A stretch of DNA of 64,000 bases from the human T2T-CHM13v2.0 reference genome, Homo sapiens. Shown in pieces: positions 800 to 10,409 of this stretch (position 1 is the first letter of the stretch; every line of letters begins with the position of its first letter). The stretch is taken from assembly GCF_009914755.1 (NCBI RefSeq), contig NC_060927.1; one strand, written 5' to 3'. A program made the translations under genes and the position numbers. Below the pieces are notes generated by a model. That model had not been told where the DNA came from. It searched no databases and saw only the letters and a program-made list of their open reading frames with translations.

Positions 800-962
800 T
801 CTATTTTATTATTTTTATTTATGTATTTATTTATTTATATTTATTTTTGAGATGGGGCCTTGCTGTGTTGCCCAGACTGGTCTCAATCTCCTAGACTCAA
901 GCGATCCTCCTGCCTCAGCCTCCCAAATCACTGGGTGTTCAGGCATAAGCCACTGTGCTCAG
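800..962 (-). mobile_element. FLAM-type Alu monomer with (TTTA)n tail
   Basis: gagatggggccttgctgtgttgcccagactggtctc...gcgatcctcctgcctcagcctcccaaa; single arm only. Confidence 0.85.
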
Positions 963-1427
963 ACTCTCTATGATGTTTACAATGAAATTTTGATGTGGTT
1001 GAATATAATTTTCTGAAGTTTAAGTTTTAATTTCATATTTTCTTTAGTTTTGTACAAATAATAGCACTATGTAGTTGCATTCCAGAAGCAACTCATGTAA
1101 ATATTCCATTAAGAGTGGACTCACAGGAATAATGAAAAGGCAGTAAGTCATATCTGTATCATCCATATGCGTGATGCATGTTAACACTGTGTGGGATTTG
1201 CAGTTGGAAGAAAATGCCCTAAACAGACATTTTTATTATTTTGACTTGTTTATGAGTGAGGTCATGTTTGTTATTAAATAGTAAAATTTACATAGTAAAG
1301 ATTGCAAAACAAACAAACAAACCCAGCCCTGAAAAACATTAATACTCTGTAATACTCTGTGAATGAGAAAATGACTAATGCACCTGTGAACAGATTCTCA
1401 ACAGTGGTAAAATTAAGCTTTAATTGC

Positions 1428-1640
1428 TGTCTCTCTCTCTCAGTAAATATTCTCTCTCTCACTAAATGAATATAATATATATTTAGAACATTCTCTATAA
1501 AGAGGAAATATAGAATATTTTAAATATATAAAACTAAAATATATATTTAGAATAATTTAATGTATTTAGAATATTCTAAATAAACAGAGGAATAATACAG
1601 AATATTATATATGTGTATATATAGTGTATGTGAAAGAGAG
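1428..1640. repeat. AT-rich low-complexity tract with iterated motifs
   Basis: Recurring tatttagaa/agagga units; perfect 20-bp palindrome tatttagaatattctaaata at 1563-1582. Confidence 0.7.
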
Positions 1641-2047
1641 ACAGATTGTTAAATTACAATAAACACAGTTTATCTTTGTATAAATAAGTTTAGGGTAGAA
1701 AAATTCATGTTGGTTTATTGATAGAAGCTCTAGCTTCTGACAGCAATTGCTGGAATATCTGGCATCCTTAATAATCCAAGAAGTTTGGGGTACTATGTGT
1801 GTATTTATAAGTACAAGATTGTCTTCCTTTAATTAACTGGAATAGTTTTTCTAATGGTGTCATGGAGGAATACCTAAACTAGTTGTAAACATAACTATTT
1901 TTTTTTTCTCAAAATGTCAAGGTTGTTTGTACAGCAACCAACACTAATTGGCTTGAAGATAGGCTTCTCTCTTGGCCTTGGCTCTTCTGGTATAAAATTT
2001 TTCCTCCAAATGGCACATATATATGATGAGATGCAACTCTATATAAT

Positions 2048-2172
2048 TGTGGTGTAGTAGAACGTGTAGACTTTGAAATCAAGGAAAAAAATCAAATTTT
2101 GGTATTATTATTTACTAACTGAATGACTGGGGCCAATCATTTAATTTCTCTAAACCTCAATTTCTTACTAAG
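2048..2172 (+). mobile_element. MIR fragment
   Basis: ggtgtagtagaa...ttactaactgaatgactggggccaatcatttaatttctctaaacctcaatttc. Confidence 0.7.
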
Positions 2173-2184
2173 GAATGGTGCAGA

Positions 2185-2525
2185 AACTTCATTGGTGCAT
2201 ACAACTTCATTGGTGAATTCTACCTAACATTTAAAGCAGAATTAATACTAACCCTTCACCAACCCTTTCAAACAATAGAAGAGAAAAGAATACTTCCCAA
2301 CTCATTCTCTAATGCTACTATTATTATCCTGACACCAAACCAGACAAAAACAGCACAAGAAAACTATAAAAAATATCTCTTATATAAATACAAAAATCTC
2401 CAACACTATACTAGCAAACCAAATCTGCAAAATACAAAAAGGATTATGTAACAGGGATAAGTAGTATTTATACTATACAAGGTCAGATTAACATAGAAAA
2501 ATCAGTTCATGCAATATACCCCGTT
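2185..2525 (+). mobile_element. Old L1M ORF2 fragment
   Basis: ggtgaattctacctaacatttaaagcagaattaatac...tacttcccaactcattct...ctagcaaaccaaatc, typical of L1 ORF2. Confidence 0.8.
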
Positions 2526-2844
2526 AAAACCCACAGAATGGGGAAAAATATTCATAATCTAAACATGCAACAAAGGACTAATATTCATCCAGTGGGCCTA
2601 GTGTTCTAGTCATTTCTTTGCCTGTCCTCAGATAAAAAGTTTCTTATAGCTTGCTTGCAGATTTTGCCTTTCTCATGCTTGTCTTGTGTAATTCCAACAA
2701 CTATGAAATAGTGCACTATCAGCAAAAAGCATATAATTCCATATATGAATGGACCATGACTTGGGGGAATTGATTTTAAGTTTTGTCAACACAGAGTGGC
2801 TATCAAGGCACTGAGACTCATTCTGAGCCTTCTTTTGCCTGTTT
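2526..2844 (+). repeat. Mosaic of three locally copied segments (donors 3702-3763, 10208-10409, 4526-4582)
   Basis: Direct base-by-base matches within the window; see findings. Confidence 0.95.
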
Positions 2845-3940
2845 TACACCAACAATGACCAAGCTGAGAATTATATCAAGAACTCAATCCCTTTTACAAT
2901 AGCTGCAAAAAAAATAAAATACCTAGGAATATACATAACTAAGAAGTGAAAGACTCTACAAGGAGAACTACAAAACAATGCTGAAATAAATTATAGGTGA
3001 CGTAAACAAATGGAAATATATCCTATGCTCATGGATTGGAAGAATCAATATCATGAAAATGACCATACTGCTTAAATTGATCTACAGATTCAATTCAATT
3101 CCTATCAAAATATCAATGCCATTTTTCATAGAATTAGAAAAAAAATTCTAAAATTCATATGGCACCAAAAGGGAGTCAGAATAGCCAAGGCAATCCTAAA
3201 CACAAAGAACAAATCTGAAGGCATCCCATCATCTGACTTCAAATTATATGACAAGGCTATAGTAACCAAAACTGCATGGTAGGGCTATAAAAGCAGATAC
3301 ATAGACCAATGAAACAGAATAGAGAACCTAGAAGTAAAGCCAAACACTTCCAGCCAACTGACCTTTGACAAAGCATACAAAAACATAAACTGGGGAAAGG
3401 ACACCCTATTCAATTAAATGGTACTGGGAAAACTGGATAGCCACATGTAGAAGAATAAATCTCAATCCCTGTCTCTCACCATATACAAAAATCAGCTCAG
3501 GATAGATGAAAAACTTAAATCTAAAACCTGGACCATAGAAACCCTAGAATAAATCCCAGGAAAAACCCTTCTAGACATTGGCAAAGTCTTCGTGATCAAG
3601 AAACTCAAAGCAAATGCAACAAAAACAAAAATAAATAAATAGGATCTAATTAAACTAAAACACTTTTGCACAGCAAAAAAATAAATAATAATAACAATCA
3701 GAAAACCCACAGAATGAGGAAAAATATTCATAATCTATGCGTGTGACAAAGGGCTAATATTCAGAATTTGTAAATAACTCAAGCAAGTCAGCACGATAAA
3801 AACAATCCCATCAAAAAGTGGGCAAATGATATGAATAGGCATTTCTCAAAAGAAGATATACAAATGGCCAAAAAACATAGGAAAAATGCTCAACATCACT
3901 AACCATCAGGGAAATGCAAATTAAAACCACAATAAGATAC
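2845..3940 (+). mobile_element. L1 (L1PB-like) ORF2 3' portion, truncated at both ends
   Basis: accaagctgagaat...aagaactcaatccc, through aaatgcaaattaaaaccacaataagatac; no 3'UTR or poly-A. Confidence 0.9.
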
Positions 3941-5629
3941 TTCATACAATTCATTAATGTATCCAAAAACTACTTCTACCCCTACAGCTATCAAAATAAT
4001 CAAATAAATTAATAAACGAGGAATGATGGTTTGGATCATAAAGCGCATGTTCATCTGTGGGACTGGCAAAAGGAAAAAAATAAGATGAAGTCAATAATAG
4101 ACAAGTTACAATTAGCAAGTGCAACCTTATACCCAAATGCAAAAATGAGGGTTAGAGTAACTATGCATATATTTTCCTTGCTTTATTATGATGATATTTG
4201 TACATATTGATGAATCTTTCCATCTCTCTTTCCCTAATATTTAATATAAGGTGTATTGGTACATGTGAATCTTATAATCAACCTTTAATAATATCAGCCT
4301 CATCCACTTTAAGTAGCAAAATATCAAAATGGGATTGTAATTTTACTGGAAGATCAATAAGCATTATTTCAAGATGAAAACAGTGACTTATAGGTTTTGG
4401 GATCTTCCCTTCTTTGGAAAATAATGAATGTATCTTATACAAGGGACAGTTACATTAGGTAGGTGGAAACATGTTGTTTCTGTTTCAGTTTGTCAGTTTA
4501 AATGTGATTGAAGGGTGTGTGTGTTAACACAGAGCGGCTATCAAGGCACTGAGACTCATTCTGAGCCTTCTTTTTCCTGTTTGTTTATTTGTTTATCATA
4601 AGGGCAACTACTGACCTGTGAAATGGAAGAAAGTCACGCCCTGAAGATGAAGACAAAGTCATCGCATCTGATTTTGTTTTCTGTCTACCTAGCTGGATAA
4701 AGTCCTACCTGCTCATGTCCTTTCCAAAGATGCGAATAAATGCAGCGCATCTAAGCCTTCGCCAGGACCTGAAGCCCAGCCTTCCAGCCAGTAGCTATTT
4801 TCTCTGCTTCCACACTTGCCAGCATTTGGAACCACATATACCTTGGCCAACCCAAGAGAGAGTTGGGGCTGCGGCTATTCGGGGTGAAAGCCCTCAGGTT
4901 TGTAGGTTAAATGGGATTTGTTACAAAAAGGTTTTCAGATAGCTTTATCCATTTAGGGAATTAAGTTCAGCGTGTTCTTAGCTACCAGTGACTTGGTCCC
5001 TGATTCCTTGTCTGCCTGTCTTTGAGGAGCACAGATTCGGTTAAATAGCTGAAAAAAAAGAAGGCAGGTACAGTTAACAAATAGCTGGCATACAGCAGGC
5101 AGCTGTGGTACAAAAATACAGTAATATACAAGCCAGTATTCTGTTTTCTCTCTTGATTTTCTCCCTGTAATCTTCCTCATCAGATCCCATGGATGGGAGC
5201 TTTTTATCACTTCAAGGAGTGCAAAATCGGCAATGAAAGGAAAAATTAATGATTTTAAAAGAAGCTAATAAAATAAAAATTAATAGTCCAGAAAATATTT
5301 GAGGGGAGGTGGAATCCAGCAGAACCAATTTTTTCTTTGTCCTTCAAATACATAAAAGTCCTCTGAGATGGAATTAGAAGAAAATTTAAGGAAACAGTTT
5401 GATGCTGGCACATATATGCATATTGGGGTAGAGGATGGGGGCTGTGCCATCCTCTTCCTCAGGTCTAACATAAAGAATAGTAAAATAACGTGTGGATCTG
5501 AGAGTAAAGCGGGCAAGTGCCCTGCTACTGTCTTGTTTGCCTTGAAAGAGCAAATCTCAAGGAGTGTTTCCTTTTCCTCAGTGGTAGAATAAGGCCATGC
5601 TGCATAGGGTCTTAGGCGTGGGTCCAAGT

Positions 5630-5850: not shown

Positions 5851-8292
5851 CCACTCATTTCCCACCACTGAATACAATTGAGAATCAGCTTCGGGAAGAA
5901 ATCCCTATAACTGAGTTTCAAACTTAAATGATGAGAAAATACTTTGAATAGTCTACTTACAAGTGACTAGATTAGATGGAAATTCAAAACAGAAACCAAG
6001 TCCCTGTATAGGGAAACAAAATTAAATATCTGCACACCTAATATATCAGCAAATATATGGTGTAGTTATAATTGCATTCTGTTTCAATTATTCTAATGAA
6101 CCTCCTTTTGTTTTAGTGAGAGATGGGAGAAAGTGTTATTTTTATTTTTAGCAAATGCAAACGTTATCTCGGCACTGGTGGGATTGAAGGGGGGTTGGCG
6201 TTAAGTCTCTTGAATAGAGTTTCTCGAAATACTAGCAGAGCATGCAATTCTAATAAGTAATACAACTATTTTAAAAGAGGTTTTGTAATTGGGCTTTAAT
6301 AATTGCTTCATATATTTTAAAACACATATTACTATTCAACAGAGATTTTTTACTTCACAATTGACTTACTTCTTCAATTTGCCTAATGATAAGCTCATAA
6401 AAAATGCTAACATTAATCATATGGCTACTATATATTACATATATATTAGTTAACTTTAAGACAAGAAAGTTACTTTTTGTAAAATTATATATATACATCA
6501 TATATATTATTATTATCCTTACTATTCCCATTATCGATATTCTCCTGATCTTCCTTCCCAGCTCAGGTGATCTGAAAGTACAAATTATTTCTTAGAAAAT
6601 AACTTTTTATGAGAAAACATATGGAGAATTTAATAAAATAAAACAAAACTAGCACTTTCCTAAGGGATTTGTAGAGCAGAAGCTTCACTTCAAATGCTGT
6701 TTTCACAAATGGCTGAAAAGTAGTTGGTTTTCTTCAGCTTCTATTTTATCTTAAACAAAGTAAGACAAAAACATTTTATCATATTATTTTCACTTGTCTT
6801 CTCACTGTAAGAACATTTTATTAGAGTTTCTTCCTCTGATGAATATGTGATTTTAGAATGGCTATGGAAGCTCAGAATCCCTCATTATTATTTGTCTGTA
6901 AACTGATACCTGAAAAGACTTTCTTGAAGTGAACATCACACAGCATCCACCTGGAGAGAGGAAAGTTTGCCCAGAAAGCAACTTGCGGTTTTTAGAAACC
7001 ATGTCTGCACCTACAATGTAAATTCAACCTGTCATTCCCAAACCACAGTCCCTTAAGACCGTAATTTACTTTACAAGGAAAAATGTTTTACTTTAACTCA
7101 CATTAAAGCCTCCTTCTATGACAGAAAGATAATTATAATAATGAACAACATCTCATCTCTGCCCTTCAGTCATTTCAGTAGAACATGTAAGCATATGCCC
7201 TACACTAGCTCTTGATCAGTCTGCCTACAGATGAGGTTGTTTTCCATTTTTCAATCACTCAGAGACATAAATTGCACATAATACTTTGTACAGATAAGCT
7301 GTATTAGATCCATTTTTAACCACAAAGGAAGGTTACTTATAAAATGGTGGCTCATGAGGGAGAATAAATGATCTTTATTGAAATGAAGGAAATTGCATAC
7401 TTCTAAATCTTAAATAATTCCAACATTGCCGAAAGCAATATAATCCCTTGGCAAATCTTGATAGATTATTTATGCTTTGGAATAGAGTCATCCAGGTGTA
7501 TGACCATCCTTGATTAATAATGAGTGTATATTCTGGATGATCATAGCACAGTATTGTGTTACAAAGCCAGCACCAATTGTTTGGAATAGAAGCAGCAAAT
7601 GTGGCTACTACTCTAATCAAAATAGATCAGCAAATAATGGCTTATCAGAGGGAAGTGTACAATATAATCGTGATTCTATATATTGGCCTTATATAATGAG
7701 ACACAGAAAAAAACCAGTCTAGATTCTGCTGATTGGTTTGAAGATAATCTTATTGTCATCCTCTTAAAGAGATGATCACGTTAGGTGGGTTTAAAAGGGG
7801 CAAATGGACACAAGAAAATGAGGAAGTTAACTCAACAAAATCGGGGTAATCATGAGTTGATATTTCAAACCTGTTCAGACTGCATTCCTCTCCTTTTTGT
7901 TCTCTTCAAGAATGCTGCCCAGGCTCTGTGACACCTTGTATCTTTTTATCAATGGTTATTGCAGAGGGCATATTAAACTGACCTCAAAGTTTGGGTTTGA
8001 ATTCATCTTGTGTTCTGTTCACCATAGACACTTCATATGTAATAGACAACATCATCTATTATATCTCGTATTCTCTGAAGGTTTTTTGTGGCTGAGGTAT
8101 GTTCAGATAATCACAGCTGGAATTCCCTGTATTTACTCTGACATTCCCTGTATTTACCCTGCATGATCTCTATAACCTTGGTGTATCCCTATCTATGAAT
8201 ATAGGTCACGTGCAGAGGAGTGCAGGCACCTATCCTGGTGTTCCTCAGAAAGAACTCAGTTGCACCTTGATGTGAAAGAAAGCGTTCACATA

Positions 8293-8413
8293 AGCCAGGC
8301 CTGATGGCCTGTGCCTGTAGTTTGAGCTACTTGGGAGGCTGAGGGGAGAGGACTCCGTGAGTCCAGGGGTTTGAGGCCAGCCTGGGCCTAGTGAAAAATT
8401 CTGTCTCTTAAAA
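8293..8413 (+). mobile_element. FAM/FLAM_A-type Alu monomer followed by (AG)n
   Basis: gtgcctgtagtttgagctacttgggaggctgagg...tttgaggccagcctggg. Confidence 0.8.
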
Positions 8414-9656
8414 GACAGAGAGAAATGGAGATAGAGAGAGAGAGAGAGATCACTTGTGCATTGATAATGTTAAAGGACCACAAGTTCTATAGAGAGACTT
8501 GAGAAAAAACAGTACTGAACTTTAGGAAAATGTTGAATCTTTAGGTTCCCTCTTTCTATCTTCCCTCACAATGCCCCTGAAACTATTATAAGTGGATTTT
8601 GTTATTGTGATGGAATAAAATGGAAGTAAAAGGAGATTGTGAAAGTTGTTTCTATATGAATGAGGCTAAGCAAATATTATCCATTAGAAAATGTATTCCT
8701 TAGAGCTAATCATGAGATATGACATGGCTTTATAATGTTTTGTATCCCAAACCTCTAAAGTTAGAATAGCTTCTGCTTTTACCAACTTAACCTTCCAATT
8801 AGGTGACATATCTGACTCGATTTGAGAAATCCTTATAAGGAAGTTGAAATAAAAAATTTATTGAGAAGTGAAAAACACAACTTTCTCCTTGATTCCCCAA
8901 ATAAGTTTTGGAGAAGCAACAGAAAGTAAGAAAAGAGCCCAGTCTAAGAGTCATTGAAGGCTTAGTCTCTCCCACAAGACTTCATTTTCTCTCTGTGTTG
9001 TCTTCGATTCACAGGGGTCTGGGGGAGGATCTATGCATTCCTCCATACCTTCCTGACTCATTGAATGTCTGTATCCTCAGAAAAAATGTATCTCAACCAT
9101 TTGTTGCTCCCTATGCGCTTCTCTTCACACACTGTTTCAGACAATAATAACACTTTATAAATGCTTTTTGATGATAATGCTTCATAAGTGGTATAGCGGA
9201 TTAGGAGTAAAGAGATATGATTTCTAGTATCTTCCTCTTATTCATTTCTTTTGGAAATAGAATTTTCATGTATCAATTTTGTATAAGAGGTGGGAGGTAA
9301 AACTTTATTTTAATGCAATTGTGTATGTGTGTGTGAGTGTGTGTATGTGTATGTGCATGTTTAAAAAGTGCTTCACATTTTCAATGCCAAAATGTCCAAG
9401 CATTATCTACTTTAATGGTGTGATTTTAAGGCGACTGATGGTACATATTAAAACCAGATATTTTGCTTTTATCCAGATATTTGAATTTTTATCTTTTTTA
9501 TTCTTTTAAAGTTTTATTTTTTATACATAGAAATAGCTCCTATAATCCCACAGATTTAAAATATATCTTCTGTTATAGAAAATTTGCAAAGTATAGAAAA
9601 AACTGGCCTTACAACCAATTTTCAAATAAAGTTGGACTTAATTTTTCCATTCTTAA

Positions 9657-9940: not shown

Positions 9941-10207
9941 ATGTAGGTACCACACTCAACATTCCAGTTGTGTTCTGAACATTCTTCTTTTAGCAACCAA
10001 TTTCAATACTTTCATCTGTGAAAATCCACATAAACCTTTTGGAATGGTATCTGTTTTCCCTCTGTACCACTGGTAAAGGAATTAGTGCCTCAGTTTTACG
10101 ACTCTCCATTGTTTATTTGTAGGACTTTCCAAAAAAAGTAGTATCTCCCCTTGTTCTTACTACTCTAGAATATGGTAAACTGCCTAGTTTGCCATTTGCT
10201 AAGTATC

Positions 10208-10409
10208 CATCCAGTGGGCCTAATGTTCTAGTCATTTTTTTTGCCTGTCCTCAGATAAAAAGTTTCTTATAGCTTGCTTGCAGATTTTCCCTTTCTCATG
10301 CTTGTCTTGTGTCATTCCAACAACTGTGAAATGCACTATCAGCAAATAGCATATAATTCCATATATGAATGCACCATGACTTGGGGGAATTGATTTTAAG
10401 TTTTGTCAA
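10208..10409 (+). repeat. Unique-sequence donor of the copy at 2586-2789
   Basis: 7 substitutions and 2 small indels versus 2586-2789 by manual alignment. Confidence 0.95.

What the first reader, a model, noticed from the sequence alone, without database searches (positions are those of the whole stretch)
2526..2844. Three-way templated mosaic stitched onto a broken L1
Seen: between an old L1M piece and the L1PB-like body lie three consecutive same-strand copies of nearby DNA. 2526-2587 copies 3702-3763 (inside the downstream L1; 7 differences, several CpG-type). 2586-2789 copies unique DNA at 10208-10409 (7 substitutions, 2 indels). 2788-2844 copies unique DNA at 4526-4582 (2 substitutions). 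Both internal joins sit in 6-bp microhomologies with one C/T mismatch (tattca/tatcca; tgtcaa/tgttaa). Established: chains of short templated insertions joined by microhomology are the signature of template switching (FoSTeS/MMBIR, or Pol theta end joining). Inference: this is a fixed germline fossil of serial template switching across ~8 kb. The ~3.5% divergence looks too low for an L1PB-age event, so it probably post-dates the L1 insertion and replaced its 5' part. Capture from a nascent RNA at insertion is an alternative, because all pieces are co-oriented.
Basis: partly seen in the sequence, partly recalled or inferred. Interest (0 to 1): 0.8.

Follow-up and report, generated by a model that had tools for sequence, protein, structure and literature searches.

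The report
Old chain of copied nearby DNA
A 650-base stretch beside an ancient, broken L1 element is a patchwork of four (perhaps five) same-strand copies of DNA lying within about 13 kb, best explained as a fossil of a copying machine that hopped between nearby templates; it is a clean example of a known kind of mutation.

Summary
The three copies are real, at the stated coordinates. The 204-bp and 61-bp pieces each have only one other match in the whole genome, their local donor, so they are not dispersed repeats.

New here: the "old L1M piece" (2197-2527) is itself a 91% copy of DNA 5.2 kb upstream (chr3:157477017-157477346), inside a long contiguous L1M. The chain therefore has at least four pieces (about 2181-2844) and its donors span 13.4 kb. 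A 19-nt fifth piece (2161-2179) is possible.

Two of the four piece junctions show a 6-nt overlap with one mismatch (chance 0.028 each). In both, the overlap carries the left donor's base, which points to plus-strand synthesis running left to right.

Donor-copy divergence is 6.8% pooled. The L1 body is 14-24% from its relatives, so the chain post-dates the L1.

Best reading: one MMBIR/FoSTeS-like template-switching event (0.6). Piece ages differ weakly (p=0.049), so two events remain possible. The kind is known and interest is modest. No outgroup genomes were available.

The parts
2161..2179 (+). Possible fifth templated piece (19 nt). It matches chr3:157471541-157471559 (window -8459..-8441), same strand, at 18 of 19.
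   Evidence: E 0.006 against the 84-kb neighbourhood; the pattern occurs exactly at only these two places in the genome; three control queries from the adjacent flank gave best non-self E values of 0.024, 0.099 and 0.37, so this piece is tentative.
2176..2215 (+). 18-bp tandem duplication (2.3 copies) at the left edge of the chain. It duplicates the start of piece 0.
   Evidence: TRF: period 18, 91% matches; both units resemble the L1M donor, not the younger L1 family; both units share a derived T where the donor and 13 of 16 outgroups have C.
2197..2527 (+). Piece 0: copy of an internal part of an old L1M lying 5.2 kb upstream (chr3:157477017-157477346, window -2983..-2654).
   Evidence: 91% over 332 bp, while the other 38 scored genome hits are 71-76%; the donor L1M continues past both ends of the copy, in one co-linear alignment from about -3240 to -1543.
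2526..2587 (+). Piece 1: copy of an L1 ORF2 3' segment. The most likely donor is 3702-3763 in the adjacent L1 body.
   Evidence: 7 differences; four rare variants are shared with the local donor against 29 other L1 copies.
2586..2789 (+). Piece 2: copy of unique DNA at 10208-10409. An imperfect overlap extends the match back to 2578/10199.
   Evidence: the donor is the only other match in the genome.
2784..2844 (+). Piece 3: copy of unique DNA at 4522-4582.
   Evidence: the donor is the only other match in the genome.
2845..3940 (+). Old L1 ORF2 body, 5'-truncated at the chain. It contains the donor of piece 1.
   Evidence: 72-79% identity to L1 loci; best genome hit 86%; p-distance 17.6-23.6% and ML terminal branch 0.17.
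3944..4021 (+). 3'-terminal ~75 bp of the same L1, with an A-rich end. It is joined to the body across an internal deletion of about 0.6 kb.
   Evidence: 31 other genome hits, all confined to this stretch; in 6 of 6 fetched loci the homologue lies at the 3' end of an L1 alignment.
3702..3763 (+). Donor of piece 1.
4522..4582 (+). Donor of piece 3.
10199..10409 (+). Donor of piece 2.

Best explanation
A single DNA-level repair or replication accident, long after the L1 had inserted. A free 3' end of the plus strand at about 2160-2180 primed short bursts of synthesis on nearby single-stranded templates. In order, these were DNA about 5.2 kb upstream (330 nt), the L1 about 1.2 kb downstream (62 nt), unique DNA 7.6 kb downstream (204 nt), and unique DNA 1.7 kb downstream (57 nt). 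A 19-nt stretch from 10.6 kb upstream may have come first. Synthesis then landed in the L1 at 2845 and resumed there. This is serial template switching of the MMBIR/FoSTeS type, equivalent to SDSA or BIR with repeated template switches. Shown: the pieces, their donors, the donors' uniqueness, the overlaps, the common strand, and the relative ages. Inferred: that it was one event, the direction of synthesis, and the enzymes involved. The 18-bp tandem duplication at the left edge probably arose later by slippage.
For: 1. Four adjacent same-strand copies have scattered local donors, and these are the only non-self pairs at 80% identity or more between 1500-4800 and the surrounding 84 kb.
2. Pieces 2 and 3 have no other match in the 3.1-Gb genome.
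3. The direction of copying is fixed for pieces 0 and 1: each donor lies inside a contiguous L1 that runs past both ends of the copy.
4. Junctions J2 and J3 each overlap by 6 nt with 1 mismatch (chance 0.028 each). J2 extends to 10 of 11 positions with one gap.
5. In both overlaps the mosaic carries the base of the left-hand donor. That is expected if the already-made strand primed on the next template while growing left to right.
6. Piece 0 differences split 13 on the copy lineage against 12 on the donor lineage (1 ambiguous of 26). This is clock-like decay after a single copying.
7. Pooled donor-copy divergence is 42 of 615 (6.8%). If the chain were as old as the L1 (per-lineage 0.07 or more), 86 or more differences would be expected; P(42 or fewer) is about 1e-7.
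8. The order of donors is not co-linear, so duplication followed by deletion does not fit.
9. [quoted passage not shown] The MMBIR model predicts low-processivity synthesis with multiple switches at microhomology (PMC2621351, passages read).
Against: 1. Divergence is uneven: 26 of 318 and 7 of 54 for pieces 0 and 1, against 7 of 193 and 2 of 50 for pieces 2 and 3. The four-way chi-square gives p=0.049, and the post-hoc two-group Fisher test gives p=0.014.
2. J1 has only 2 nt of overlap (chance 0.18). J4 has no exact microhomology.
3. All 4 pieces are co-oriented (p=0.06 if orientation were random), which an RNA template would also explain.
4. No excess of copy-lineage changes was seen in piece 0, so there is no trace of error-prone synthesis.
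5. A 10-mer with one mismatch lies just left of the chain (2171-2180) and again just after the L1's A-rich end (4019-4028). If it is a target-site duplication, chain and L1 would be bracketed as one insertion.
6. No pre-event allele could be examined.
Confidence: 0.6

Rival explanations
1. Two or more successive events at the same weak spot. An older one added pieces 0 and 1. A younger one inserted pieces 2 and 3 between piece 1 and the L1 body.
For: Pieces 0+1 differ from their donors at 33 of 372 sites (8.9%) and pieces 2+3 at 9 of 243 (3.7%); Fisher p=0.014, and p=0.016 without CpG transitions. The four-way test gives p=0.049.
Against: The grouping was chosen after seeing the data, and the 95% intervals for per-lineage age overlap (0.031-0.062 against 0.008-0.035). 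Two independent complex insertions at one point is a coincidence. Six of the 7 differences in piece 1 are changes in the donor, four of them A-to-G within 15 bp, which may be one local event that inflates its divergence.
Confidence: 0.2
2. RNA-templated origin. Either the L1 reverse transcriptase switched templates onto local transcripts while the L1 was inserting (a chimeric L1 insertion), or a later break was repaired by reverse transcription of one long plus-strand nascent RNA.
For: All pieces share the L1's orientation. The L1 has a normal A-rich 3' end at about 4016. A 10-mer with 1 mismatch sits at the left edge of the chain and directly after the L1 tail, as a target-site duplication would. 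Chimeric L1 insertions in sense orientation with flanking duplications are documented (PMC13174262, passages read).
Against: The ages do not fit. The chain's per-lineage divergence is 0.034 (0.025-0.046), against 0.07 or more for the L1; P is about 1e-7 for all pieces and 0.003 for pieces 0+1 alone. The overlaps at J2 and J3 carry the left donor's base, which is opposite to what cDNA growing from the L1's 3' end would leave. Three other matches of equal quality to the putative duplication occur in 1000-2900, and its left copy may belong to the 19-nt fifth piece. I saw no canonical GT...AG pair at the donor edges when reading them. No gene is annotated in the window (hub table). The later RNA-templated repair version is not excluded by the age argument.
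Confidence: 0.08
3. A local segmental or tandem duplication later whittled down by deletions, with the mosaic being what is left.
For: All pieces are local and share one orientation.
Against: The donor order (-2983, 3702, 10208, 4526) is not co-linear. At least a triplication plus four precise deletions, each ending in or near microhomology, would be needed.
Confidence: 0.04
4. Polymerase-theta end joining of an ordinary double-strand break, with repeated anneal-extend-release cycles.
For: There is microhomology at J2 and J3, and a chain of templated pieces from the neighbourhood. The possible 19-nt piece falls in the usual size range.
Against: Reported POLQ templated insertions are 2-35 bp, and 5-15 bp at reporter breaks (PMC7454005, passages read). 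Four pieces here are 57-330 bp. This overlaps mechanistically with the best explanation and cannot be separated from it by sequence alone.
Confidence: 0.08

Closest known systems
MMBIR/FoSTeS templated-insertion chains (germline 'MMB-TI' events; Hastings et al. 2009, PMC2621351; Osia et al. 2021, PMC8421209)
   Same: Several short segments copied from nearby templates are strung together, with microhomology at switch points and an eventual return to the original template. Germline events with up to five templates are reported.
   Different: The pieces here are longer (57-330 bp) and the donors further away (1.2-7.6 kb, perhaps 10.6 kb) than the within-100-bp yeast signature quoted in that paper. 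The event is old and carries 4-9% decay. All pieces are direct, whereas the model allows either orientation. Only 2 of 4 junctions show clear microhomology.
Polymerase-theta (TMEJ) templated insertions
   Same: Microhomology-primed copying of flanking or distant cis sequence, with iterated cycles.
   Different: Tract lengths here are 2- to 10-fold above the 2-35 bp range quoted.
Chimeric L1 insertions made by reverse-transcriptase template switching (PMC13174262)
   Same: Non-L1 sequence is fused in sense orientation to the 5' end of a 5'-truncated L1 that has an A-rich tail. A candidate flanking duplication is present.
   Different: The partners are unspliced local intergenic DNA rather than abundant RNAs. 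The chain is at most about half the age of the L1. The junction polarity runs the wrong way.

Membership tests
MMBIR/FoSTeS-type templated-insertion chain | Two or more templated segments from elsewhere are juxtaposed at one site | tested here: met
   Four adjacent copies have separate local donors. A fifth, of 19 nt, is tentative.
MMBIR/FoSTeS-type templated-insertion chain | Microhomology at the switch points | tested here: inconclusive
   J2 and J3 each have 6 nt with 1 mismatch (chance 0.028 each). J1 has 2 nt (chance 0.18). J4 has none exact.
MMBIR/FoSTeS-type templated-insertion chain | Templates lie nearby in cis | tested here: met
   All donors lie within -2983 to +10409 of the window, and pieces 2 and 3 match nowhere else in the genome.
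MMBIR/FoSTeS-type templated-insertion chain | All segments laid down in one event (equal age) | tested here: inconclusive
   Heterogeneity chi-square 7.84, 3 df, p=0.049. The confidence intervals overlap.
MMBIR/FoSTeS-type templated-insertion chain | A pre-event allele lacking the chain exists in outgroups | not testable with these tools
   No primate genomes are held. The genome search states that the genome has no relatives here.
Polymerase-theta templated insertion | Short templated tracts (2-35 bp as quoted in PMC7454005) | tested here: not met
   The pieces are 330, 62, 204 and 57 bp.
Chimeric L1 insertion (template switch during TPRT) | Partner in sense orientation at the 5' end of a truncated L1 with a poly(A) tail | tested here: met
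   Same strand. L1 3' end and A-rich tail at 3944 to about 4016.
Chimeric L1 insertion (template switch during TPRT) | Target-site duplication bracketing the compound insertion | tested here: inconclusive
   AGGAATGGTG at 2171-2180 against AGGAATGATG at 4019-4028. Three other matches of equal quality occur in 1000-2900.
Chimeric L1 insertion (template switch during TPRT) | Partner and L1 are of the same age | tested here: not met
   42 differences were observed, against 86 or more expected; P is about 1e-7.
Segmental duplication followed by deletions | Pieces are co-linear with the source | tested here: not met
   The order is -2983, 3702, 10208, 4526.
   The 204-bp and 61-bp pieces each gave 2 matches of 2 candidates. 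Pieces 0 and 1 are L1-derived, but their local donors stand out: 91% against 76% or less for piece 0, and shared rare variants for piece 1.

The most novel reading that the evidence does not exclude
The strict co-orientation of all four or five pieces, together with four consecutive jumps of similar size (about 5.5-6.4 kb), could mean that the templates were not exposed DNA. They could instead have been one long plus-strand nascent transcript, or a regularly folded chromatin fibre, used to patch a germline break. The locus would then be a fossil of RNA-templated or architecture-guided break repair in a primate ancestor.
Probability: 0.08. Interest if true: 0.55.

Novelty: new member of a known kind. 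Interest (0 to 1): 0.3.

Why it matters
This is a well-preserved, fixed germline example of a multi-template insertion. Every donor still survives within 13 kb, so tract lengths, jump distances, junction overlaps and even the direction of synthesis can be read from one haplotype. Such fossils can calibrate how often template-switch repair shaped primate genomes and over what distances. They also warn annotators that a fragment labelled as an independent old L1 may be a local copy. The finding does not change what is known about the mechanism.

Tried and rejected
1. Dispersed-repeat origin of pieces 2 and 3: rejected.
2. The upstream L1M piece and the L1 body as two halves of one L1. They are co-linear in L1 coordinates with a gap of about 455 bp. 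Rejected because 2197-2527 is 61-64% identical to the reference L1s and the body 77-79%, and because 2197-2527 is a 91% copy of the upstream L1M.
3. The first 18-bp unit at the left edge as a remnant of the younger L1's 5' end: rejected. It matches the L1M donor motif, not the younger family's sequence at that position, in the 7 L1 loci aligned (7 of 10 tried gave a hit).
4. Spliced-RNA origin. An AG precedes two donor left edges, but no GT follows any donor right edge. This was read by eye, not tested statistically.
5. RNA-editing or APOBEC-type bias in piece 0. Copy-lineage changes are mixed (T>C 5, C>T 3, G>A 2, A>G 1, transversions 2), so there is no single-direction bias.
6. Target-site duplication: inconclusive. 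A second look-alike at 1579-1596 (16 of 18) appears to be AT-rich chance.
7. A direct blast of 3941-4025 against six L1 reference loci gave only chance 10-15-mers. Its L1 3'-end identity was settled with six other loci.
It was rewritten.
10. No RepeatMasker or Dfam was available, so the names 'L1M' and 'L1PB' are not verified. Only relative divergence was measured.

Full report
**1. The observation**

They are 2526-2587/3702-3763 at 89%, 2582-2789/10204-10409 at 92-97% per block, and 2784-2844/4522-4582 at 95%.

I then ran blastn of 1500-4800 against an 84-kb stretch made of the 20 kb upstream plus the window. Apart from self, it gave only four pairs at 80% identity or more: those three and a new one.

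Gapped alignments of the cores, with overlaps excluded, give these counts:
- Piece 1: 7 substitutions in 54 columns (6 transitions, 1 in a CpG context).
- Piece 2: 7 substitutions and 2 indel events in 193 columns.
- Piece 3: 2 substitutions in 50 columns.

The phrase "several CpG-type" is not.

**2. The pieces are not dispersed repeats**

The whole T2T genome can be searched. The 204-bp piece gave 2 candidates, both scored: itself and 10208-10409 at 95%. The 61-bp piece gave 2 candidates: itself and 4522-4582 at 95%. The left flank 1750-2200 matched only itself.

Piece 1 is L1 ORF2 sequence. Of 412 candidates, 40 were scored, and the local donor (89%) is not better than a chr5 copy (90%). In an alignment with 29 other L1 copies, however, piece 1 and 3702-3763 share four variants that are rare or absent in the others. 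Of their 7 differences, 6 are changes peculiar to the donor (four A-to-G within 15 bp) and 1 is peculiar to the copy. I accept the local L1 as donor, with less certainty than for the other pieces.

**3. A fourth piece**

Window 2197-2527 matches chr3:157477017-157477346 (window -2983..-2654, same strand) at 91% over 332 bp. The other 38 scored hits, of 2064 candidates, are 71-76%.

The upstream partner lies inside a long, contiguous old L1M. That element gives one co-linear alignment from about -3240 to -1543 and a further one from -1137 to about -300, at 60-64% identity to six L1 reference loci. L1M homology continues past both ends of the copied stretch. In the mosaic it stops at both ends. 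So the upstream element is the donor.

Using 17 other L1M fragments as outgroups, the 26 substitutions split as 13 on the copy lineage, 12 on the donor lineage and 1 ambiguous. This is ordinary clock-like decay with no sign of error-prone copying.

**4. The left edge**

An 18-bp unit is present 2.3 times at 2176-2215. Both units resemble the L1M donor, not the younger L1 family's sequence at that ORF2 position. Both carry a T where the donor and 13 of 16 outgroups have C. The duplication therefore probably arose in the copy after the event.

Immediately to the left, 2161-2179 matches window -8459..-8441 on the same strand at 18 of 19 (E 0.006). The 19-mer occurs exactly at only these two places in the genome, with 3 further sites at one mismatch, against 9 for the reversed control pattern. 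Three control queries from the adjacent unique flank gave best non-self E values of 0.024, 0.099 and 0.37. I treat this fifth piece as possible, not shown.

**5. The L1 on the right**

Window 2845-3940 aligns to L1 ORF2 in many loci. The stretch 3944-4021 has 31 other genome matches, all confined to it. In 6 of 6 fetched loci its homologue lies at the very 3' end of an L1 alignment, about 0.6 kb beyond the point where the window's body stops. The L1 is therefore 5'-truncated at the chain, has an internal deletion of about 0.6 kb at 3940/3944, and has a normal A-rich end near 4016.

**6. Junctions**

- J1 (piece 0 to 1): 2 nt of overlap (AA).
- J2 (piece 1 to 2): TATTCA against TATCCA, extending to 10 of 11 positions with one gap.
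- J3 (piece 2 to 3): TGTCAA against TGTTAA.
- J4 (piece 3 to L1): no exact overlap. Four or five of the six bases upstream resemble what L1 relatives carry there, but the L1's own upstream sequence is gone.

Among 20,000 random junction pairs from this region, an overlap of 6 nt or more with at most one mismatch has frequency 0.028, and an exact overlap of 2 nt or more has frequency 0.18. Microhomology is therefore beyond chance at two junctions only.

In both of these, the mosaic carries the left donor's base. If the mismatches date from the event, the strand already made served as primer on the next template. Synthesis then ran 5' to 3' on the plus strand, from left to right. Later mutation of the donors could mimic this (inference).

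**7. Ages**

Donor-copy substitution divergence is 8.2% for piece 0, 13.0% for piece 1, 3.6% for piece 2 and 4.0% for piece 3. Pooled, it is 42 of 615, or 6.8%, giving a per-lineage value of 0.034 (0.025-0.046). Heterogeneity among the four pieces gives chi-square 7.84, p=0.049. Pieces 0+1 against 2+3 give Fisher p=0.014, but that grouping is post hoc.

The L1 body is 14-18% from the 39 non-self scored hits (of 8646 candidates) over its first 378 bp. Over 1.1 kb it is 17.6-23.6% from 17 relatives, and its ML terminal branch of 0.17 is the longest of the 18 tips. Sixteen of the 33 loci tried were dropped because they lacked an alignment of at least 900 bp. The relatives are not an exhaustive sample, so 0.17 is an upper estimate.

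Even taking the lowest figure (per-lineage 0.07), a chain as old as the L1 should show 86 or more differences. P(42 or fewer) is about 1e-7, and for pieces 0+1 alone P is 0.003. The chain post-dates the L1.

**8. Explanations**

The best-supported reading is one episode of serial template switching by a DNA 3' end. This is MMBIR/FoSTeS, or equivalently break-induced or synthesis-dependent repair with repeated dissociation. The model's features are a 3' tail annealing by microhomology to nearby single-stranded DNA, low-processivity synthesis, several switches, and a return to the original template (PMC2621351, passages read). [quoted passage not shown]

All-direct orientation (p=0.06 for four pieces if orientation were random) would follow if only one strand, such as the lagging-strand template of one replicon, was exposed. 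That is inference.

Polymerase theta could be the enzyme, but the tract lengths quoted for it are 2-35 bp (PMC7454005, passages read).

Two successive events cannot be excluded, given the age difference.

An L1 chimeric insertion would require sense orientation, a tail and flanking duplications (PMC13174262, passages read). Orientation and tail are met. A 10-mer with one mismatch sits at 2171-2180 and at 4019-4028, but three other matches of equal quality occur in the 1.9 kb searched. The age test and the junction polarity both speak against this reading.

Duplication followed by deletion fails because the donor order is not co-linear.

**9. What stays open**

Four questions remain: what the chain replaced, whether it was one event, whether the 19-nt piece is real, and which enzyme was involved. 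All but the last need the orthologous locus in other primates, and none was available here. The subfamily names "L1M" and "L1PB" were not verified, because no RepeatMasker or Dfam was available. Supplements of the cited papers were not opened. I found no statement about this locus in the three literature searches that ran, but none of those searches was aimed at the locus, so this is not evidence that it is undescribed.

**10. Verdict**

It is a fixed, post-L1 chain of four (perhaps five) templated pieces. Its kind is known, and this instance is a tidy one. Interest 0.3.

Noticed in passing
window 3940-4021: The L1 next to the chain has an internal deletion of about 0.6 kb. It joins ORF2 (ending at 3940) directly to the last ~75 bp of the element and its A-rich end.
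   Followed up: yes
window 2171-2180 and 4019-4028: AGGAATGGTG and AGGAATGATG sit at the left edge of the chain and just after the L1 tail, like a target-site duplication. Three other matches of equal quality occur in 1000-2900, including a 16-of-18 look-alike at 1579-1596.
   Followed up: partly
donor coordinates -8441, -2983/-2654, 3702/3763, 10208/10409, 4526 (window scale): Four consecutive template jumps have similar sizes (about 5.5, 6.4, 6.4 and 5.9 kb). There are too few to test, and this could be coincidence.
   Followed up: no
window 3739-3753: Four A-to-G changes peculiar to this L1 copy fall within 15 bp, judged against 29 other L1 copies and piece 1. This may be a clustered mutation or a small conversion tract.
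   Followed up: partly
window 2520-2523: The junction of pieces 0 and 1 has three transition differences from the donor within 4 nt (CCCG against TCTA).
   Followed up: no
window 826-988 and 8291-8417: An inverted pair (83 nt, 72% complementary) also matches several places in each fetched L1 locus, so it is a common interspersed repeat and not part of the chain.
   Followed up: partly
chr3:157476760-157479700 (window about -3240 to -300): A 2.9-kb old L1M on the plus strand, interrupted at about -1540 to -1140, is the source of piece 0.
   Followed up: yes
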